IMG/VR virus record: IMGVR_UViG_3300045988_154277
Strand: one strand, 5' to 3'
DNA: 64,000 bases
Source: a virus
Part shown: positions 4,124-33,672 of the stretch, in pieces
Layout: each line of letters opens with the position of its first letter
Numbering within the stretch: the stretch's first letter is position 1
The notes under the pieces: generated by a model
Seen by the model: the letters and a program-made list of their open reading frames with translations, nothing else
What the model was told of the DNA's origin: nothing
The model's database searches: none
Program-made: the position numbers and the translations under genes

Positions 4124-5050
4124 TTAGGAGTCCGTATCCATGAGACCGTACGGATCATTCGTCGCCACATCAAGATCTGATGCTGTGGTCGTAATGTCCT
4201 TTTCTGATACATTGCGTGTCTTGAAGTACCGGTAGTCCCACGTTACTTCCTGAAGCTTCTTGTACAGTACATTCAGGATCTTCTTAACACAGTTGTAGTA
4301 CCGTGTATCATCTGTTGTCAGTTCAAACTCTTGCATACACAGCGTGACAAGACGATACGTGTCGTGTTTACAAATGTATGTGTCTCGATTCCACACGGGG
4401 TAGTTTGCATTCAGAAACTCACAACAAGTACAATACTTATCTTCCGTGTAAGTATCCGGATCTTGTAAGTAACGTGTCAATGCTCTGTTGTATAGCGTCT
4501 TATAGAACTTATCGACAACATGGTTGATCGCGGTTGTGTAAAGGGCATGCTCTTTTTGGAACCCTTTATCGGTCGCTTCTTGTTCGTCTTTGAACGTATC
4601 AATGCGAGCATCTGCACAACAACCAAATATCTTCTTGATGATACCAGGTTCTGCGATGTGTTGTGTGCAAAGATCCATCACCCATTCAGGTAGCGGGTGA
4701 AACGCAGGTTGTTGTAGTGACTTTTGATTGGGTTCGTAGAACGATTTGGCGATACTTTCTACGGTGTATGGTATACAGTCGGGGTTGTCGATATGACATG
4801 TTCTAACCCAAGGGTCGCTGTTTTTATGTAGCCGATACATGATCTGGTCAACTACTGCTTCGTAGTTGATTTGCTCCGGTACAGGGATGATCTCTTTGAG
4901 AAACGTTATCAGAGTGTTTCGAAAGTTAGCGTCTACGGACGCTGGTATCTTGACATACCCATAGTTTCTCCAGACACTGTTCGCAAGTGGTTGGATCAAC
5001 CCGTCGATGGTTGCTTGGAATTCTTCTCTTGTTACGATGTTGTTCTCCAT
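4124..5050 (-). CDS. hypothetical protein (308 aa; start moved to MENNIV)
   Basis: ORF 4124-5083. Internal ATG at 5050 has a GAGGAG RBS and removes the overlap with the upstream gene. Confidence 0.5.
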   Translation of the reverse strand: MENNIVTREEFQATIDGLIQPLANSVWRNYGYVKIPASVDANFRNTLITFLKEIIPVPEQINYEAVVDQIMYRLHKNSDPWVRTCHIDNPDCIPYTVESIAKSFYEPNQKSLQQPAFHPLPEWVMDLCTQHIAEPGIIKKIFGCCADARIDTFKDEQEATDKGFQKEHALYTTAINHVVDKFYKTLYNRALTRYLQDPDTYTEDKYCTCCEFLNANYPVWNRDTYICKHDTYRLVTLCMQEFELTTDDTRYYNCVKKILNVLYKKLQEVTWDYRYFKTRNVSEKDITTTASDLDVATNDPYGLMDTDS

Positions 5051-5063
5051 AATGCTCCTCTTG

Positions 5064-5453
5064 TCATCTGTTGAATATCCCAAATCTTCTCTTGATCTTC
5101 ACTTTCACCGTTACCTTGGATAACCCAACCAAGTACATTTTGAAGTAGGGTTCTCCGTAGTTGCAGCAATCTCTGTTATGTTTGTTGATCTCTTCTACTA
5201 CACCAAGTGCAGCTCCCATCTGTTTTAACAGACTGTAATTCACGACACGAAGAGATACGTTCAGACTGTACTCCAACACCTTGTCGTGATACATCTCCTC
5301 CACACATCGACGATATGCATCGTGAACGAGGTCGTAGATACATCTGGTGATCTCATCACTTGGGTTCTTCGCATTCTTGATGCGGATCGACATGTTCTTC
5401 AATTGTTCTTCTTGTTTCTGGTAAACAAGATCGTAAAGTTGTTTGGCATCCAT
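5064..5453 (-). CDS. hypothetical protein (129 aa; start moved to MDAKQ)
   Basis: ORF 5064-5561. The upstream part overlaps a promoter-like AT-rich element (5480-5510), and an AAAGGA RBS precedes the ATG at 5453. Confidence 0.4.
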   Translation of the reverse strand: MDAKQLYDLVYQKQEEQLKNMSIRIKNAKNPSDEITRCIYDLVHDAYRRCVEEMYHDKVLEYSLNVSLRVVNYSLLKQMGAALGVVEEINKHNRDCCNYGEPYFKMYLVGLSKVTVKVKIKRRFGIFNR

Positions 5454-27149: not shown

Positions 27150-27205
27150 GTTAACCTCCTATCTTTGGCAAAAAATGTACACCTGATATACATTAATATT
27201 GCCTA

Positions 27206-27244
27206 CGTTGGATAGGTTGAGTATCGAACTCAACCTATCCAACG
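27206..27244. terminator. 17-bp stem hairpin
   Basis: CGTTGGATAGGTTGAGT atcga ACTCAACCTATCCAACG. Confidence 0.5.
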
Positions 27245-27300
27245 TATGTGCACAACAATCATTTTCAATGAGAAATATATATTCAAAACTCGGATGAACT

Positions 27301-27582: not shown

Positions 27583-27783
27583 ATGCCTACTATCAATCGT
27601 GGTACATCGGGCACCTACGCGGTGTCTTCGGATAAAACAACAACCAAACAGACTGTTACACCTCGCAAGACGACGAAACGTGTCGTTGTATCTGAACAAT
27701 CTGATGTGGTTTACACTAAGTTACCGACCAAGCGACTTACTAAAATAGTTTCGATGGAAAAGATCTCCAAGAAACGCAGATGA
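27583..27783 (+). CDS. small basic protein (66 aa)
   Basis: AGGAG RBS plus ATG (MPTINRGTSG...); followed by a hairpin. Confidence 0.45.
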   Translation: MPTINRGTSGTYAVSSDKTTTKQTVTPRKTTKRVVVSEQSDVVYTKLPTKRLTKIVSMEKISKKRR

Positions 27784-27808
27784 GCAAGTATCGCGTTGCC
27801 GTATCTTA

Positions 27809-27846
27809 CTACTAGAGTGTGGTGAGCTGACACCACACTCTAGTAG
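27809..27846. terminator. 16-bp stem hairpin
   Basis: CTACTAGAGTGTGGTG agctga CACCACACTCTAGTAG. Confidence 0.5.
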
Positions 27847-27906: not shown

Positions 27907-30900
27907 ATGCCATTCACATTCGATATGTCACCGAGTGAAGAGCGTCTTCTCTACGACAAGTTCTTCCGGACGAATATGTTCCGTAGGATCAATGATCTTA
28001 CGAGATTGTGGAACCGAGAGGATCTTGTTGAATACCCCGTAGGGAGTATGCTTCACTTGATCGACGATAACTTCTTGATGAACCATCCTGTTGTGTTGGT
28101 TCCCGATACCTCTGGTTGGTCTATGACCAGAAAACCAGACCGTAAGTTCGTGATGCACATCATAGAACCGGTACCTGCAACAGCGATCCCTCTTACAGAA
28201 ACCTTCGCTCTACCTACCTCAGGGGTGTCTGTTACGATCTTGAACTTCAAGAAGCGTAATCAGAACCTGATGCGTCCTGTTGTGAAGATGGAGGATTTTC
28301 CGAGTCCGATGCGTCCTGAAGTACAGAGTATCATCTCGTACAACGCACTTTACCGTGCTCGTATCTTTGGACTGTTGCGAGGATATCGTCGGTTCAATTA
28401 CATCTTCACCAACATCTTCAATACCATCTGCTCGATCGGAACGGGAAGACGACATTTCATCCCGATCCCTGTCGGAGATAAGGTCTTTGATCGAAACAAG
28501 TTCATGACCTCTTTTATCAAACACGATAAAGGTTCTCTGAAACTTGCAGAAGATCCGTGGTATCTGTTCATGGTTCACTTCATGGGGTGGTTGAACACCC
28601 AAAACACACCCTCTCTGTTCGAGAAAGTCCCTGAGAAGTATTGGGAATATATCAACTTCGTTCTGTATACAAGAACCAAAGTTCTTGTTCTCAATATGAA
28701 GCTCTTGAAAGAGTTCAACGAAGGGAACAAGATCCTTTGGCGGGTGATGAATTTGATCAACCTGATGGCTGAGGAAGGTCATCAAGCTGCGATGCAGGAC
28801 TTCGGTGATGTTCCGGTTGCATGTGATACACAAGAAGAACCAGGAGAACTCGCTGTTCAAGCGGATACTCCTTTTACAGAAGAGAAGGAACCGATCCATG
28901 TCACTACTCAAGAGACTGCTTCTGATCGTGACAACCAAGATCAGAGTACTGTTCCACAAGGATCCCCCAGAGAGGAAGATCAGGTAAACGAGGTTACCTT
29001 ACAGCAACCTCCTGCGGAACCTGCCCCCAAACAACAGGAACCCCCGTCTCCTGTGAAGACGATGTTCACTTCTCCTACCAGGAGGAAACCCATCCCGTAT
29101 CTCACCACTCAGCAGAGAGTCAAACGGGAGACTGATGAGTTCGAAAAGTATCTCGATTTCGAACCTCAGACGCTGACGATCGATCCCAAGTGGTTAGAAG
29201 TAGAGATGGTGGAGGGGAAACAGAATGCTCCCGAGTTCAAAGAGAACATGACGGAAGAGGAACAGAAAACCTCCAACCAGAAGTTCTTGAATGAGATTGA
29301 CGAAGGAGCGAAGACTCATATCGAGAATGATCAACATCTCAACAACTATCAAGCAGAGCAAGCGAAGAAACTCGCTGAAGCATACAAGAACATCAAAGTT
29401 GGAGATAAGACGATCGAACAGATCATCCAGGAAGTACCAGATGACACGGTTGCAACCAACACGTTGAATTTCTTGGAGGACGATCCGGATATCGTGGATA
29501 AGTCCATGTTGAAATCTTCCGTTGCTACGTTCGAACACGACTACATGAAGAAACTCTTCCTTCGGGATATGGTGATGAACCTCACCTCATTCAACAAACA
29601 AGGGATGTTCCTGAAGCAAGTGGATGTGGAAGACGTCAGCGATAGTCTGAACCAGCTGATGGAGTACAAAGTCACCTACGAGGATACAAGCAAGAAAACG
29701 CACGTCATCCGATTCAAACTTCCCAAAGTAGATGAGAGAGGATACTGTTATGTGAACGGTACGCTTAGCGTCCTGAAGAAACAGAGAGTCCCTCTTCCGA
29801 TCTGTAAGATCAACCCGACAACTGTTACGTTGACCAGCAACTACAACAAGTATCTGGTGGTGCGGAATGTCACGGTGGCTCACAGTTATATCAACTACAT
29901 CGAGTCGATCCTGAACAAAGGCAATACACCAGAACATCCTGTTGTTGTTCAGCTGAACACCAAGACTTGGAACGATGTGACACTCCCCTACGAGTACACC
30001 TCGTTGGCGAAGAAATACCTCAGCATCAAACTCTCGTTGACAGAGACAGTTGAGTTCTATTTCAACCTGGAAGGAAGACACCAGTGGTTGAGGGATGTTG
30101 GGGGTCTCTTACCAGAGGACTTGGACCTCGTAAAATCGATCGAGAGCGACGCGAAATGCCTTGCTGTAGCGTACGTTGGGAAGCGTCTAATCGGGTTCAT
30201 AGATATCAACAACATATTTACCGTGATCAACTTGGACGACCATACAACCTCTGCTTCTACGACGATCATCGATTTCTTGTGTGAGCAGTTGAATGTAGCT
30301 CCGACTCCGCTGTCAGAGTGGACGGATTTCAAACTGTTGGAGACAACGGTTCCTGTGATCTTCGCTCTCTGTTATCGGTACGGTCTGAGTGAGATGTTGA
30401 ACTACACCAAGACACAGTATCGTATCTTGGAATCAGGAGAACGTTCCTATCGGAACTGGTCTGATGTTGTAATACGGTTCGCAGATAAGACGCTGATCAT
30501 CCCGAGGTCTCCTCTGGTGAACAGCATGCTGTTCGCTGGGTTGAACTTCTTCCAGTTGAACAAGATCAATATGGAAGAGATGGACAGTAAAGATATCTAC
30601 TACGATCTTCTCCAGAGCAAGAAACGTTCTGTTCATTTCCTGAAAGGGATCGATAACTTCTTCGATCTGTTCGTGGATCCGATCTCCAGAGAGGTTCTGG
30701 AACAGATGAAAGAACCAACCAATGCAAGAGATATCCTGATCCGTGCTACTCAGCTTCTGACGACAGAAGATCACAAACCTCAGGCTTCCAGCACCAACTT
30801 CCGATTCCGTTCTTATGAACAGATCAATAGTGCGATATACAAAGTACTGAGTCGATCCTTCGCCAACTACAGAAGCAAGAGTGTAGGCGCTACTCACAAG

Positions 30901-31269
30901 TGGAGTATCGCAGATTACGAAGTGCAGCAGATGGTTATGCAGGATCAGTTAAAAGAGAATGTCGACATCATCAACCCCATCAACGACATCAAGTATCAGG
31001 AGGAGTTCTCCCATGCTGGATTCGCTGGTGGACGGAAGAGTCTGCAGAGTTTTACAGTCCCAGATCGTCAGTATCCGAAAGATGCTGTCGGTATCATCTC
31101 AGAGGCTACCGTCGATAGTGCGAAGACTGCATTCGCAGCGTCCACTTCGATGGATCCGACGATCGTCAATATGCGTGGGATGACACTCACCTCTAACCCA
31201 GATGAGTTGAAACCTACTCAGATCTTGTCGATCAGTTCTTTGATCATGCCTGGAGTGACGCAAGATGAT
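27907..31269 (+). CDS. multisubunit RNA polymerase beta-like subunit, exon 1 (about 1121 codons)
   Basis: GAAGGAGG RBS. NTPEHPVVVQLN resembles beta ETPEGPNIGLIN, and the C-terminal SLIMPGVTQDD resembles beta SLIPFLEHDD. The ORF is closed by a TAA that lies at the 5' edge of group I intron A. Confidence 0.6.
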
Positions 31270-31681
31270 TAACATTATAACAGTCCGGTATACCCGAAGA
31301 GGGTGTGCTTGTTACCATTCCTAATACTAGGAAGTTCTTAAGGTTCTACATACTACAACGTAGCTCAAAAGGCAAGCGTGATAGTCGCGAAAGCAGAAAG
31401 AAATGTAGAAATGACCTATGCTGAAATAAAAGCCTGTTACAAGGTGCTAAGGGTTGCTAACAAGGAATTACTAGTAGCGAAGTCTTGTCTATAAGACAGG
31501 ATGTGCTCAACGACTAGGGGGTTAATCGCCCCGTACCCGCCAAGTGGCGCTGGGAAACGGAATGGACCCTAACAGATTAAGCTGAGGGTTTGACATAGTC
31601 TCTACATCTACGGAAAGCGTAGAGCAGAACTTAATGTTCGGGTGATGAGTAACGATCATCACTGAAGATAAAGAGCAAGCG
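31270..31681 (+). ncRNA. group I intron A (ORF-less); core to about 31622 plus a possible 3' extension
   Basis: P7 halves GACTAG (31512-31517) and TAGTC (31596-31600). Q/R region GGATGTGCTCAACGACTAGG parallels Tetrahymena GGAUGCAGUUCACAGACUAA. P9 hairpin CTACG gaaag CGTAG (31608-31622). Extra hairpin GTGATGA gtaacga TCATCAC (31642-31662). Confidence 0.65.
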
Positions 31682-31690
31682 TCAAAATTT

Positions 31691-32047
31691 AAACATTACT
31701 GAACCGTATACTGGAAACAGTGTGCGTGCATAGACCCTTTAATTGTCTGGGAGTTCCTAAAGCCTGTTGGACCACAACGTGACTTGTAAAAGTGAGCGTG
31801 ATGGTGACGAAAGTAGAAAGAATCAACAGGATGTCTCATGCTGCAATAAAAGTCTACTTCTAGTAGATGCTAAAAGACAGTAACAATGGATAATCAGCAG
31901 CCGAGATCCTTCACGGAGGATCAGGTTCATCGACTAGACCTGAGAAGGTCGTACCCCTCAAGTGAGGCTGCGGAAATAAGGGTCCGCTAAACGTATCGTA
32001 AGATACGCATGTGTGAGATATAGTCAGTACATCATGCGAAACGCATG
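31691..32047 (+). ncRNA. group I intron B (ORF-less), homologous to intron A along its whole length
   Basis: R: TTCATCGACTAGACC (31932-31937 is GACTAG). S: GAGATATAGTCAG (32021-32025 is TAGTC), nearly identical to Tetrahymena AAGAUAUAGUCGG. P9: CATGCG aaa CGCATG (32033-32047). Aligns with intron A from AACATTA onward. Confidence 0.65.
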
Positions 32048-33241
32048 AGCTGGGTAACCATTCCCGGGACGGAAGTAACGACTCCGTCTGAACACAAAAG
32101 CGTAAGTATCCACCTCTCTCACTACCTTCCCACTGAGAAGTGTGAAGTGTCTCGTCTTCGTACAGGTTACGAGAAGATCGTAGCCCATCGTTGTAATCCT
32201 CCCTTCGCTTATGCTGCAGAAGCAGATGGTGTGATCGAAGCTATCGATCAGGAAGCGAAGATCCTTCGTGTGAAGTACAAAGATAAAACCGTTGCCGTAT
32301 CGTTCGGTGATGATTACACTAAGAACGGCGGTGGTGGATTCTACTGTACTCAGAACATCGTAATCAACGGATACGAAGAAGGAGATAAGGTCAAGCGTGG
32401 AGATATTATCATCTACAACGACCGGTTCTTCACTCCTGATCCGTACAGCAAACAAGTCAATTGGAACATCGGTGTGTTGAAAGACGTCGTTCTTATCGAC
32501 GGTGACAGTACACTGGATGACAGTTGCATCATGGATCATGATCTTGCTAAGGATCTTGCATTCAACCCTGTCCATATCCGTGACATCGTGGTCACCAAGA
32601 AGACTACGATCCACAAATATGCATCCATAGGAACAGAGGTCAAATCGATCGATCCTCTGATGATCTTCGACCAGTCGGAACTGAATGAAGATATGTTCGG
32701 TGGACTGGATGAAGATGCGATCCGTCTGTTGGGTAAGATCAACAAGAGAACTCCGAAAGCCAAGTTCACTGGTAAAGTAGTCGCACTGGATGCGTTCTAC
32801 ATCGGAGGGATCCAAGACATGGCTCCTGGTGTTCGTGGGTTGGTCAGTCTGATCAACAAGATGAAATATCAGAAACACCAAGCTGCGAAAGGAACTGTCA
32901 ACCAGGACAACTACCCTGTTTCTCAGAACATCACTCAGTCCAACCGGATCGGTATGACCGAACTGGATGAAGAGACGGTGATCTTCCGGTTCTATATCCA
33001 GCAGGATATGAAGATGAACGGTGGAGACAAAGTGGAGTTCGATAGTTCCTTGAAATCCGTCTGCACAGGTATCTCGAACAACTCCTGGGTGAGTGAAGAT
33101 GGTTCGTTGGTAGGACATGCTCTGTTCTCCACGATCGGTATCGACAACCGTATCATCAACTCTCCTAAGATCGAAGGGATGTGCAACAAGATCTTGGAGA
33201 CTGCGGAACAACAGATCCTCAAGATGTATTTCGAAGAGTGA
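32048..33241 (+). CDS. multisubunit RNA polymerase beta-like subunit, 3' exon (about 398 codons; exact 3' splice site uncertain by a few nt)
   Basis: Matches to E. coli beta: [32 protein letters not shown] versus [58 protein letters not shown] versus [43 protein letters not shown]...NKILET versus GDKMAGRHGNKGVISKI...GQILET. The ATG at 32045 used by the ORF track lies inside intron P9. Confidence 0.6.
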   Translation, partial: [397 protein letters not shown]

Positions 33242-33246
33242 ATAAG

Positions 33247-33284
33247 GTACTGTAGGGTGATGGATGTCCATCACCCTACAGTAC
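33247..33284. terminator. perfect 38-nt palindrome hairpin
   Basis: GTACTGTAGGGTGATGGA tg TCCATCACCCTACAGTAC. Confidence 0.5.
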
Positions 33285-33288
33285 AACT

Positions 33289-33672
33289 TCACAGTTTGTA
33301 GTAGATCTCCGATTCATCATACGGAGTATTGTCCTTGATCCAATAAGACCAGAACCGTTGAAGTTTCGTCTTACCATACCGGAAGAACGACACTTGTTCG
33401 ATCTCCACGAACCCACGGATCGTTTTTGTTTTATCCCCCTTGACACGGGTTGGAGGATCGTATCGCAACGCGTACGTCAAGATCTTGGTATCACGTTTCA
33501 ACGACTCCTTGAAGAAATACGTCGTCAGGACTCGCTGACGGATCGCATGACCCAAGAACTTCTGTAGGATCGGTCCGATCTTGGCTGTGTCGTTCGTGTG
33601 GAATGCTCCGAACCGATAGCTGGATCGGAGGTGCTGGTCCATAGCGGACAAAGTACGGTAGACGTAGAACAT
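33289..33672 (-). CDS. hypothetical protein (127 aa; start at MFYVYRTL)
   Basis: ORF track gives 33289-33798. AAGGAG RBS precedes the ATG at 33672, which sits 2 nt after the TGA of the upstream gene. Confidence 0.5.
   Translation of the reverse strand: MFYVYRTLSAMDQHLRSSYRFGAFHTNDTAKIGPILQKFLGHAIRQRVLTTYFFKESLKRDTKILTYALRYDPPTRVKGDKTKTIRGFVEIEQVSFFRYGKTKLQRFWSYWIKDNTPYDESEIYYKL

What the first reader, a model, noticed from the sequence alone, without database searches (positions are those of the whole stretch)
31270..32047. Two tandem, mutually homologous, ORF-less group I introns split a multisubunit-RNAP beta-like gene
The 778 nt between the 1121-codon and 398-codon beta-like ORFs hold two ribozyme cores, each with canonical P7 halves: GACTAG at 31512-31517 and TAGTC at 31596-31600 for A; GACTAG at 31932-31937 and TAGTC at 32021-32025 for B. 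Their R and S elements nearly match the Tetrahymena elements CAGACUAAAUG and AAGAUAUAGUCGG, and each has a terminal P9 hairpin (CTACG gaaag CGTAG; CATGCG aaa CGCATG). The two copies align along their whole length, starting at an AACATTA box that follows a U-ending exon-like sequence (...GATGATT / ...AAAATTT).

Both flanks encode recognisable beta blocks: SLIMPGVTQDD before; GDK...ILET and YTKNG...CTQN after. The TAA that ends ORF 1 and the ATG that starts ORF 2 both sit inside intron sequence, so ORF callers will mis-annotate one spliced gene as two genes. Tandem duplicated introns a few dozen nt apart in one host gene are unusual.
Basis: partly seen in the sequence, partly recalled or inferred. 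Interest (0 to 1): 0.85.

Follow-up and report, generated by a model that had tools for sequence, protein, structure and literature searches.

The report
Two introns flanking a 17-nt exon
A gut jumbo phage's virion RNA polymerase beta gene is interrupted at its active-site motif by two related, ORF-less self-splicing (group I) introns separated by a 17-nucleotide exon; this is real and precisely mappable, but it is a new example of known phenomena, not a new kind of element.

Summary
Confirmed and refined. ORF1 (27907-31272) and ORF2 (32045-33241) are one gene, the homolog of phiKZ gp178 (virion RNAP beta), which is uninterrupted in PA7 and RP12. Two subgroup-IA-type group I introns interrupt it: A = 31270-31673 (404 nt) and B = 31691-32100 (410 nt).

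Splicing both gives a 1506-codon ORF reading ...TQDD-SKRQNF-VSIH..., which aligns without a gap to bacterial beta ...HDD-ANRALM-GS.... Natural alleles in gut metagenomes fix the boundaries to the nucleotide: A+B- (L009, L027, L030), A-B+ (L010, L032, L114) and A+B+ (window, L028, L029).

Rfam RF00028 hits both introns only below threshold (43.1 and 21.8 bits; cut-off 50). Ten copies nevertheless support a full P2-P9.2 fold: 91.9% of cells paired and 56 of 93 pairs compensatory.

Site A is the known PhiPA3 gp210 / 201phi2-1 intron site. Sites B (+17 nt) and C (+9 nt, in L012) are further sites in the same hotspot. The closest precedent is Twort orf142 (two similar IA2 introns, 23-nt exon). A and B are homologous but not a local duplication. 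Splicing itself is inferred, not shown.

The parts
27907..31269 (+). Exon 1 of the virion-RNAP beta gene (phiKZ gp178 homolog), ending ...CAA GAT GAT (..TQDD)
   Evidence: tblastn to jumbo-phage RNAP beta genes at about 33% identity. BLASTP alignment ends at the DD of RP12, PA7 and AgentSmith. The last base is U, as required for a group I 5' splice site.
31270..31673 (+). Group I intron A (404 nt, ORF-less, subgroup IA type with P7.1/P7.2, P9.1/P9.2 and an extended P5). It sits at the known 'after-DD' homing site.
   Evidence: RF00028 43.1 bits, E=1.9e-9. Absent, leaving an empty site, in L010, L032 and L114. Covariation over 10 copies. Ends in G31673. z=-3.79.
31282..31285 (+). Internal guide sequence of intron A (AGUC). 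G31283 forms the wobble pair with the last exon base U31269. P1 = GAU|U with AGUC.
   Evidence: Pairing computed for all A copies. Located immediately 5' of P2, as in B. P1 is short (3 exon pairs plus 1 intron pair).
31512..31516 (+). P7 5' strand of intron A (GACUA). It pairs with UAGUC at 31596-31600. G31512-C31600 is the predicted guanosine-binding pair.
   Evidence: Invariant in all 10 copies, 5/5 pairs. RF00028 alignment.
31642..31662 (+). P9.2 hairpin of intron A (GUGAUGA / UCAUCAC) with the conserved loop GUAACGA
   Evidence: Helix 19: 6 of 7 pairs compensatory. The loop is conserved in A, B and the HNH-bearing intron of L037.
31674..31690 (+). Mini-exon, 17 nt: AGC AAG CGT CAA AAT TT, encoding S K R Q N and the first two bases of F
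   Evidence: Only this choice restores the frame, giving 1506 codons and one stop. It is contiguous with exon 3 in the B- alleles L009, L027 and L030, and with exon 1 in the A- alleles L010, L032 and L114. It aligns to ANRALM of bacterial beta.
31691..32100 (+). Group I intron B (410 nt, ORF-less, same architecture as A, 57% identical to A)
   Evidence: RF00028 21.8 bits, E=0.0045. nhmmer with the 10-copy profile, E=3.5e-106. Precisely absent in L009, L027 and L030. Compensatory changes within the B group. Ends in G32100. z=-5.09.
31696..31703 (+). Guide region of intron B. UUAC (31696-31699) pairs with exon 3 GUAA (P10). UGAA (31700-31703) pairs with UUU|A (P1), with G31701 wobble-paired to U31690.
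   Evidence: P1 has 3 exon pairs plus 1-2 intron pairs. P10 has 4 consecutive pairs in the window and 6 in L028, L029 and L010.
31932..31936 (+). P7 5' strand of intron B (GACUA). It pairs with UAGUC at 32021-32025.
   Evidence: Invariant, 5/5 pairs.
32068..32088 (+). P9.2 hairpin of intron B (GACGGA / UCCGUC) with a loop containing GUAACGA. It lies inside the mis-called N-terminus of ORF2.
32101..33241 (+). Exon 3 (C GTA AGT ATC CAC ... = (F)VSIH... to the stop codon), the C-terminal 379 residues of beta
   Evidence: tblastn to phiKZ-like beta genes at about 30% identity. The first 7 nt, CGTAAGT, are shared by all B+ alleles, against TGTCTCC or TGTTTCT in all B- alleles.

Best explanation
The 1121-codon and 398-codon ORFs are exons 1 and 3 of one gene for the beta subunit of the virion-packaged multisubunit RNA polymerase of an uncultivated human-gut jumbo phage (phiKZ gp178 family).

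Two subgroup-IA group I ribozymes (A 31270-31673, B 31691-32100) interrupt it inside the conserved active-centre motif. They are separated by a 17-nt exon (31674-31690). After transcription each intron is predicted to fold independently and excise itself by the standard two-step guanosine-initiated transesterification. In A, U31269 pairs with G31283 in P1 and the terminal G is 31673. In B, U31690 pairs with G31701, P10 forms with exon 3, and the terminal G is 32100. The product is an mRNA for a 1506-aa protein reading ...PGVTQDD-SKRQNF-VSIHLSHY....

The two introns are separate members of a widespread phage intron family and were acquired independently at neighbouring sites of a homing hotspot. 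Site A is the one used by the PhiPA3 gp210 intron. Their nearly complete divergence in helix sequences and guide sequences should favour exon inclusion over exon skipping.

Shown here: gene identity, exact boundaries from empty-site alleles, frame restoration, conservation and covariation of the ribozyme fold, and presence/absence polymorphism with linked exon changes. Inferred: actual self-splicing, its order and efficiency, and the route of mobility (trans-acting HNH nickase or plain recombination during co-infection).
For: - One gene in relatives: PA7 gp189 is 1451 aa and RP12 ORF041 is 1483 aa, and each covers both halves.
- Frame: joining 27907-31269 + 31674-31690 + 32101-33241 gives 4521 nt and 1506 codons with a single terminal stop.
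- Motif: the junction DD-SKRQNF-VSIH matches DD-PKR(V/I)NF-(I)xIQ of the homologs. It aligns gap-free to bacterial beta HDDANRALMGS (9n9p_C, E=2e-5).
- Empty sites: B is exactly absent in L009, L027 and L030 (..CAGAATTT|TGTCTCC..). A is exactly absent in L010, L032 and L114 (..GACGAT|TCGAAA..). Both are present in L028 and L029, which come from other metagenomes.
- Ribozyme: RF00028 E=1.9e-9 and 0.0045. RNAalifold gives 76 pairs, 51 compensatory. An explicit P3-P9.2 structure with the P3/P7 pseudoknot has 91.9% of cells paired against 36-41% with slid partners, and 56 of 93 pairs with double changes against 10-22; 0 of 500 shuffles reach the observed percentage paired, count of compensatory pairs or covariation score. 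P7 is invariant. P7.1/P7.2 mark subgroup IA.
- Splice-site rules: U at -1 and G at the 3' end hold in all 10 copies.
- Linked exon changes: 5 of the first 7 nt of exon 3 differ between the window and its ~96% identical B- relative, then 1 difference in the next ~75 nt. All B+ alleles share CGTAAGT, which also forms P10.
- Endonuclease-bearing relative at site A: L037 carries an HNH_3 ORF, and its intron shares the P9.2 loop and 3' tail with intron A.
- Published parallel at the same site: PMC11620839.
Against: - No transcript or biochemical evidence was available.
- Both introns score below Rfam's gathering threshold (43.1 and 21.8 against 50).
- P1 is short in every copy (3 exon pairs including G.U, plus 1-2 intron pairs), and intron A has no convincing P10. 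Efficient splicing may need a protein cofactor or chaperone.
- No allele with both sites empty was found in the close clade.
- No homing endonuclease is recognisable in the ORFs I scanned near the gene, so the route of mobility is open. Only 20 ORFs of the window went through PHROGs and 10 of them through Pfam.
- The linked exon changes could reflect selection for P10 pairing as well as co-conversion.
Confidence: 0.9

Rival explanations
1. The gene is genuinely split. ORF1 and ORF2 are translated as two separate beta fragments, as happens for other jumbo-phage RNAP subunits, and the 778 nt between them is an untranslated spacer or decayed intron remnants that are not removed.
For: Jumbo-phage beta and beta' are known to be split into several polypeptides (established knowledge). 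ORF callers find an ATG at 32045. RF00028 scores are below threshold.
Against: The six residues SKRQNF, with the invariant K-R and N-F of the family, exist only as the 17-nt mini-exon, and they come in frame only if both introns are removed. ORF2's first 19 codons overlap P9-P9.2 of intron B and have no counterpart in the homologs once the mini-exon is counted. Relatives at 94-96% identity have each site empty and exons fused. The ribozyme helices are under purifying selection with compensatory changes.
Confidence: 0.03
2. Only one of the two ribozymes is autonomous (A). Intron B, or both, depends on a phage or host protein or on the neighbouring ribozyme. Alternatively a substantial fraction of transcripts skip the mini-exon, giving a frameshifted truncated beta, so the arrangement lowers or regulates vRNAP beta output.
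For: B scores only 21.8 bits. P1 helices are very short and A lacks P10. Exon skipping is documented for tandem group I introns around short exons: Twort orf142 at 23 nt, Coxiella at 34 nt, SIOphi, and engineered Tetrahymena pairs (PMC10136302, PMC11878797). Skipping here would give ...DD|RKYPPLSLPSH*.
Against: B's helices show compensatory changes among B copies themselves, and its MFE z-score is -5.09. B occurs alone in L010, L032 and L114, so it does not need A in cis. A chimeric P3 (A 5' strand with B 3' strand) forms only 3 of 8 pairs against 7 of 8 for the cognate strands, and the guide sequences differ (AGUC and UGAA). PMC10136302 reports that differentiating the splice-site recognition elements suppresses exon skipping in engineered pairs.
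Confidence: 0.2
3. The tandem pair arose by local duplication of one intron, with ectopic re-insertion 17 nt downstream in the same genome.
For: A and B share the whole architecture, including peripheral P5 extensions and the GUAACGA loop of P9.2. A neighbour-joining tree that counts gaps as mismatches groups A, B and C.
Against: A-only and B-only alleles exist in different lineages. A-B identity on match columns is 53-57%, lower than B to L014/L020 (66-69%) or A to FishSpeaker (68%). The exon flanks of B+ alleles are shared across lineages, which indicates lateral transfer.
Confidence: 0.1

Closest known systems
PhiPA3 gp210 intron in the vRNAP beta gene (gp211/209); also 201phi2-1 gp273/274 and HPP-Temi
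   Same: Same host gene (phiKZ gp178 family) and the same insertion point, immediately after the conserved DD, as intron A (PMC11620839). All are group I introns (RF00028 68-87 bits). The 201phi2-1 and HPP-Temi copies are also ORF-less and about 300 nt long.
   Different: PhiPA3 encodes an HNH nickase inside the intron, while A and B encode nothing. Those phages have one intron and the window has two. Blastn did not link A to them. The profile built from A/B/C matches only their 3' halves.
Staphylococcus phage Twort orf142, introns 2 and 3 (Landthaler and Shub 1999, as summarised in PMC10136302)
   Same: [quoted passage not shown] The window's introns share DNA similarity with introns of Staphylococcus, Enterococcus, Brochothrix, Lactococcus and Bacillus phages.
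   Different: Twort I2 and I3 are described as highly similar and undergo exon skipping. Here A and B are only 57% identical, with different guide sequences and non-interchangeable P3 strands. The host gene is a tail tube protein there and RNAP beta here. No splicing data exist for the window.
Coxiella burnetii 23S rRNA introns Cbu.L1917 and Cbu.L1951; phiNIT1 ribonucleotide reductase small internal exon; mitochondrial mini-exons
   Same: Group I introns separated by a mini-exon: 34 nt in Coxiella, a 'small exon' in phiNIT1, and down to 3 or 1 nt in mitochondria (PMC10136302, PMC11878797, PMC8971849).
   Different: Coxiella's two introns belong to different subgroups and sit in rRNA. The mitochondrial cases are in eukaryotic organelles.
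phiKZ gp179 intron (between gp180 and gp178) and the FishSpeaker beta'-like intron
   Same: Group I introns in jumbo-phage RNAP subunit genes at catalytic motifs. The phiKZ intron's 3' half is 71% identical to intron A's 3' half. FishSpeaker's intron is the closest outgroup to A (68%) and splits NSDFDG|DQM.
   Different: Different subunit genes and sites. phiKZ's intron carries an HNH ORF.

Membership tests
Group I intron (Rfam RF00028) | Conserved catalytic core: P3-P8 with the P3/P7 pseudoknot, the P4-P6 domain, the J6/7 and J8/7 strands, and a G-binding P7 | tested here: met
   The RF00028 alignment spans model positions 1-253 for both introns. P3, P4, P5, P6, P7, P8 and P9 are paired in A and B. 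56 of 93 pairs are compensatory and P7 GACUA/UAGUC is invariant.
Group I intron (Rfam RF00028) | Score at or above Rfam's curated gathering threshold (50 bits). This is a detection criterion, not a biological definition. | tested here: not met
   43.1 bits (A) and 21.8 bits (B). Homologous copies that align full-length with A and B do pass: L012 at 59.7 bits. More distant members of the same intron family, matched by the A/B/C profile, also pass: L023 at 79.8 bits and FishSpeaker at 72.5 bits. The low scores stem from insertions of about 115 nt in P5 and about 40 nt (P7.1/P7.2), visible.
Group I intron (Rfam RF00028) | 5' splice site after a U that forms a G.U wobble in P1 with an internal guide sequence; 3' terminal G (omega-G) | tested here: met
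   All 10 copies follow an exon U and end in G. A G 10-14 nt into the intron, just 5' of P2, pairs with U-1. Caveat: P1 has only 3 exon pairs plus 1-2 intron pairs.
Group I intron (Rfam RF00028) | Precise excision restores the host reading frame and a conserved protein motif | tested here: met
   In silico only: a 1506-codon ORF, a gap-free alignment to homologs and bacterial beta, and natural empty-site alleles.
Group I intron (Rfam RF00028) | Guanosine-dependent self-splicing of the transcript | not testable with these tools
   Needs in vitro transcription and GTP, or RNA-seq.
Subgroup IA (phage type; IA2 as in T4 td and Twort) | Extra helices P7.1 and P7.2 between P7 and P3'; P9.1 and P9.2 after P9 | tested here: met
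   Helices 14, 15, 18 and 19, with compensatory pairs. The insertion between P7 and P3' is visible. Assignment to IA2 specifically was not tested, because no subgroup models were available.
Mobile (homing) group I intron | Intron-encoded homing endonuclease ORF | tested here: not met
   No ORF of 40 aa or more on the + strand in A or B. No endonuclease family was found in the 10 neighbouring ORFs scanned with PHROGs and Pfam. HNH_3 ORFs are present in related introns at site A in L037 and PhiPA3.
Mobile (homing) group I intron | Presence/absence polymorphism at a fixed site among close relatives, with exon co-conversion next to the site | tested here: met
   A+B-, A-B+ and A+B+ alleles. The exon 3 positions 1-7 haplotype CGTAAGT is strictly linked to B. 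Co-conversion cannot be separated from selection for P10.
Twintron (intron within intron) | One intron inserted inside another, requiring sequential splicing | tested here: not met
   A and B are side by side, with a coding 17-nt exon between them. Each occurs alone at its own site.
Jumbo-phage virion RNAP beta subunit (phiKZ gp178 family) | Full-length collinear homology to gp178-type proteins, including the DD-xKRxNF and RTGYE motifs | tested here: met
   Pfam RNAP domains are not detected, as expected for these divergent proteins. Packaging into virions was not tested.

The most novel reading that the evidence does not exclude
The ORF-less introns are retained because they act as immunity. 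Each occupied site destroys the recognition sequence of a competitor phage's intron-encoded HNH nickase that targets the beta active-site hotspot, as PhiPA3 gp210 does to phiKZ. On this reading, the three neighbouring sites A, C and B within 17 nt, and the double occupancy, are the footprint of an endonuclease arms race among co-infecting gut jumbo phages. Strong sequence differentiation of the two ribozymes would then have been selected to prevent lethal skipping of the 17-nt exon.
Probability: 0.2. Interest if true: 0.65.

Novelty: new member of a known kind. Interest (0 to 1): 0.45.

Why it matters
**Annotation.** One essential 1506-aa gene is called as two ORFs, and 19 codons of the second are ribozyme. 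Rfam's default threshold misses both introns, so standard pipelines will mis-annotate this and related gut jumbo phages.

**Biology.** The conserved beta motif DD-xKRxNF is an intron hotspot in jumbo phages, with at least three insertion points within 17 nt. Site A is the one through which PhiPA3 attacks phiKZ. The window and its relatives form a natural series (A only, B only, A+B, an HNH-bearing intron at A, and site C) in which intron gain, loss and co-conversion can be read directly from metagenomes.

**RNA mechanism.** A 17-nt exon between two homologous but strongly differentiated ribozymes is a natural test of the rules for exon inclusion versus skipping that were derived from engineered Tetrahymena pairs.

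None of this is a new kind of element. The value lies in precision and in a good natural system.

Tried and rejected
- Megablast of the region against GenBank phages found nothing. The phage is known only from metagenomes.
- Rfam at the gathering threshold on the whole window found nothing. The permissive scan was needed.
- Pfam on ORF1 and ORF2 gave no RNAP domain. Homology had to come from tblastn and PDB phmmer.
- I first thought AACAUUA (31271-31277) pairs with UAAUGUU (31631-31637) in A. I rejected this because B has no counterpart, and the 3' segment instead forms a local P9.1 hairpin with compensatory changes.
- I first looked for the missing residues in the about 65 nt after the P9 hairpin in all frames. 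Only the last 17 nt code; the rest is P9.1/P9.2.
- Local tandem duplication is rejected.
- A search for a free-standing or intron-borne endonuclease with PHROGs and Pfam on 10 neighbouring ORFs found none.
- A search for an allele with both sites empty in the close clade found none, using IMG/VR, the metagenome scan, a profile scan and the 5.8-billion-protein search. Distant jumbo phages are mostly intronless at this locus (69 of 80, a count biased by the search pattern).
- L114's unrelated upstream sequence looked like a further insertion. It is a scaffold with an N-gap joined to a DNA-polymerase fragment, so only its junction was used.
- The MAFFT alignment is out of register for P2 and for inner P8, so those helices were checked by eye and left out of the covariation count, which makes it conservative.
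- The Twort paper (PMC22036) is not held in the library. Its content is cited through PMC10136302.
- A further copy of the intron family elsewhere in the window: none, by nhmmer with the 10-copy profile.
Full report
**Observation**

Rfam at its curated threshold reports nothing in the whole window. A permissive scan of 31150-32150 finds two full-length matches to the group I intron model RF00028. These are 31266-31624 (43.1 bits, E=1.9e-9) and 31700-32048 (21.8 bits, E=0.0045), against a gathering score of 50. In the whole window the E-values are 1.2e-7 and 0.3, and no other intron-like hit appears. The alignments show why the scores are low: insertions of about 115 nt in P5 and about 40 nt between P7 and P3'.

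**The host gene**

Neither ORF hits a Pfam RNAP domain, and megablast finds no close phage. By tblastn, however, the C-terminal 290 aa of ORF1 and the whole of ORF2 each match 'RNA polymerase beta subunit' genes of about 300 jumbo phages at 30-33% identity. In phiKZ-like PA7 (gp189, 1451 aa, the phiKZ gp178 ortholog) and in Ralstonia phage RP12 (1483 aa), one uninterrupted gene covers both halves.

BLASTP places the end of ORF1 (...PGVTQDD) at the invariant DD of the homologs. These continue PKR(I/V)NF-(I/V)xIQ...RTGYE. The rest of the window carries a phiKZ-type major head protein, DNA polymerase, DnaB-like helicase, UvsX and SbcC. It is a jumbo-phage genome fragment, and its relatives come from human-gut metagenomes.

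**Exact anatomy**

The homologs require six residues (xKRxNF) between DD and (V/I)SI(Q/H). They are encoded by AGC AAG CGT CAA AAT TT at 31674-31690. This stretch follows a G (31673) and ends in a U (31690).

Joining 27907-31269, 31674-31690 and 32101-33241 gives 4521 nt and 1506 codons with one terminal stop. The junction reads ...TQDD-SKRQNF-VSIHLSHY.... The same junction aligns without a gap to bacterial beta (...SLIPFLEHDDANRALMGS...GTGLE; 9n9p_C, E=2e-5), so the mini-exon encodes the ANRALM equivalent.

Intron A is therefore 31270-31673 (404 nt) and intron B is 31691-32100 (410 nt). ORF1's TAA is the first triplet of A. ORF2's ATG lies in P9 of B, and ORF2's first 19 codons are P9-P9.2 of B. 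Skipping the mini-exon would frameshift (DD|RKYPPLSLPSH*). Removing A alone runs into a stop inside B.

**Natural alleles fix the boundaries**

| Allele | Loci | Evidence |
|---|---|---|
| A+ B- | L009, L027 (about 96% nt identity in the flanking exons); L030 (80-85%) | Mini-exon fused to exon 3...AAAG\|AGCAAGCGTCAGAATTT TGTCTCCATCCACC |
| A- B+ | L010/L011, L032 (about 75-79%); L114 (94% aa) | Exon 1 fused to the mini-exon: GACGAT TCGAAA(A/C)G(A/C)CAAAATTT\|intron B |
| A+ B+ | window; L028 (279-kb human-gut contig); L029 | Both introns present |
| Site C | L012 (47% aa) | One related intron, DDGKR\|...\|TNFSSIQ, 9 nt after site A |
| Site A with HNH | L037 (56% aa) | 1.54-kb intron encoding an HNH_3 endonuclease |

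L037's intron has a 3' end with the same P9.2 loop (AGUAACGA) and UGAAGAxAAxG tail as intron A. I found no allele with both sites empty in the close clade.

**Linked exon changes**

All B+ alleles begin exon 3 with CGTAAGT. All B- alleles have TGTCTCC or TGTTTCT. Between the window and L009 that is 5 differences in 7 nt, followed by 1 in the next ~75 nt. The serine codon switches between AGT and TCY. The B-linked version forms P10 with the intron's guide region, with 4-6 consecutive pairs. This is the expected footprint of homing with a short co-conversion tract, or of selection for P10. The two cannot be separated here.

**The ribozymes**

Ten copies were aligned: five of A, four of B and one of C. 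RNAalifold predicts 76 pairs, 51 with compensatory changes.

I then wrote an explicit group I structure of 93 pairs. It comprises P3, P4, P5, a four-part P5 extension, P6/P6a, P7 as a pseudoknot, P7.1, P7.2, outer P8, P9, P9.1 and P9.2. The counts are:

| Measure | Observed | Partners slid by 1-3 columns |
|---|---|---|
| Cells forming a standard pair | 91.9% | 36.5-41.4% |
| Pairs with changes on both sides | 56 of 93 | 10-22 |

No shuffle out of 500 reaches the observed percentage paired, the count of compensatory pairs or the covariation score. P7 (GACUA/UAGUC) is invariant.

Examples of A against B:
- P3: CCAUUCC/GGAAUGG against GACCCUU/AAGGGUC.
- P5a: UUCUACAU/AUGUAGAA against CCUGUUGG/UCAACAGG.

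P2 (UAUACCC/GGGUGUG against UAUACUG/CAGUGUG) and inner P8 are out of register in the alignment, so I checked them by eye. P7.1/P7.2 place both introns in subgroup IA. MFE z-scores are -3.79 and -5.09.

P1 is short in all copies. In A, GAU|U pairs with AGUC, with the G31283.U31269 wobble. In B, UUU|A pairs with UGAA, with G31701.U31690. A has no convincing P10. That is the main structural weakness of the case.

**Relationship of A and B**

They are homologous over their whole length (57% identity; score 278 against 111.5 +/- 11.8 for shuffles). They share peripheral elements that also occur in introns of Enterococcus, Lactococcus, Brochothrix, Staphylococcus and Bacillus phages (75-78% over about 100 nt).

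On profile match columns A-B identity is 53-57%. That is less than B to L014/L020 (66-69%) or A to the FishSpeaker RNAP intron (68%). With the single-occupancy alleles, this argues for two independent acquisitions, not a local duplication. Only these two copies occur in the window.

**Mechanism**

Inferred: each intron folds on its own and self-splices by the standard guanosine-initiated pathway, and both must be removed with the 17-nt exon retained. The two ribozymes are differentiated at nearly every helix. A chimeric P3 (A 5' strand with B 3' strand) forms 3 of 8 pairs against 7 of 8 for cognate strands, and the guide sequences differ. In engineered tandem Tetrahymena introns, differentiating the splice-site recognition elements suppressed exon skipping (PMC10136302).

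Neither intron has an ORF, and no endonuclease was recognised in the neighbouring ORFs scanned. Spread is therefore most likely by recombination during co-infection. It may be helped in trans by HNH nickases of related introns, such as those of L037 and PhiPA3 gp210.

**Comparison with what is known**

- Site A: Birkholz et al. (PMC11620839) describe the PhiPA3 gp210 intron as inserted immediately after the two conserved aspartates of the vRNAP beta gene (phiKZ gp178 D1072). That is site A.
- Other occupants of site A: 201phi2-1 gp273/274 is annotated as a joined CDS interrupted by a mobile element. It and HPP-Temi carry ORF-less introns of about 300 nt at that site.
- Other RNAP introns: phiKZ has an HNH-bearing intron between gp180 and gp178.
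- Tandem introns around tiny exons: Twort orf142 (23 nt, two similar IA2 introns, exon skipping), Coxiella 23S rRNA (34 nt), phiNIT1 and SIOphi, and mitochondria.
- Gut jumbo phages rich in introns have been reported (PMC12880540).

**Verdict**

The added value is:
- exact boundaries and the 17-nt coding mini-exon;
- an allelic series that proves the boundaries and shows independent gain or loss;
- two further insertion sites (B and C) in a known hotspot;
- the demonstration that A and B are not a duplication.

It is a new member of known kinds, with moderate interest. Splicing itself remains to be shown.

Noticed in passing
L007 (Shewanella phage FishSpeaker OP589283) about 4941-5327: An unannotated group I intron (RF00028 72.5 bits) splits a beta'-type RNAP gene inside the catalytic motif: ...EYNSDFDG | intron | DQMYVMF.... 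This is the NADFDGD equivalent. The record annotates only the upstream part as 'RNA polymerase beta subunit'. It is the closest outgroup to intron A (68%).
   Followed up: partly
L037 (IMGVR_UViG_3300001528_000425) 952 to about 2492: A 1.54-kb intron at site A in a 56%-identical relative encodes a 337-aa HNH_3 endonuclease (1031-2044) upstream of the ribozyme core (RF00028 41.6 bits, also below threshold). It may be the endonuclease-bearing form of the intron A lineage.
   Followed up: partly
L012 (IMGVR_UViG_3300045988_175426) 2599-2988: A third insertion site in the same motif: DDGKR | 390-nt intron | TNFSSIQ, 9 nt downstream of site A and 8 nt upstream of site B. The intron is 62-68% identical to A and B.
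   Followed up: partly
L010 and L011 (IMGVR_UViG_3300045988_163688, 361,040 bp): The same locus occurs twice in inverted orientation at mirror positions (90456 + 270585 = 361041). The contig is a perfect palindrome, almost certainly a fold-back assembly artefact of a genome of about 180 kb.
   Followed up: no
L018 (IMGVR_UViG_3300008058_000140) 1142-2479: Three hits of the same intron family within 1.4 kb (1142-1306, 1620-1929, 2209-2479). L017, L022, L024 and L026 have two hits less than 1 kb apart. Closely packed introns of this family seem common in uncultivated phages.
   Followed up: no
L004 (HPP-Temi PP968062) and L003 (AgentSmith MW749006): Annotation errors caused by or near introns. 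HPP-Temi's gp178 homolog is annotated as two 'RNA polymerase beta subunit' CDSs plus a 39-aa hypothetical protein. AgentSmith's 1415-aa beta homolog is labelled 'putative HNH endonuclease', and an intron-like hit lies downstream at L003 8201-8442.
   Followed up: no
window 27204-27246 and 27809-27846: Two perfect hairpins in the 750-nt gap upstream of the beta gene: a 19-bp stem with a 5-nt loop, and a 16-bp stem with a 6-nt loop about 60 nt before the ATG. A small ORF (27584-27784) lies between them. Their function is unknown; a terminator, a regulatory element or a processing site are possible.
   Followed up: partly
window 28780-29320 (ORF1 residues about 290-470): The N-terminal half of the beta protein contains a long acidic, proline- and glutamine-rich low-complexity stretch (...QEEPGELAVQADTPFTEEKEP...PPAEPAPKQQEPPSP...). 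I did not check whether it has a counterpart in the phiKZ-type homologs.
   Followed up: no
window 32024-33292, minus strand: A 422-aa GTG-initiated ORF lies antisense to exon 3 and almost coextensive with it. It is most likely a spurious shadow ORF.
   Followed up: no
L114 (ENA ERZ28576734 scaffold_12892) 1-1615: The scaffold joins a family-B DNA-polymerase-like fragment (..ISDTDS..) through an N-gap to the 3' part of the beta gene. It is probably a mis-scaffold. Its gene call P0006 translates exon 1 plus the mini-exon and then reads into intron B.
   Followed up: partly
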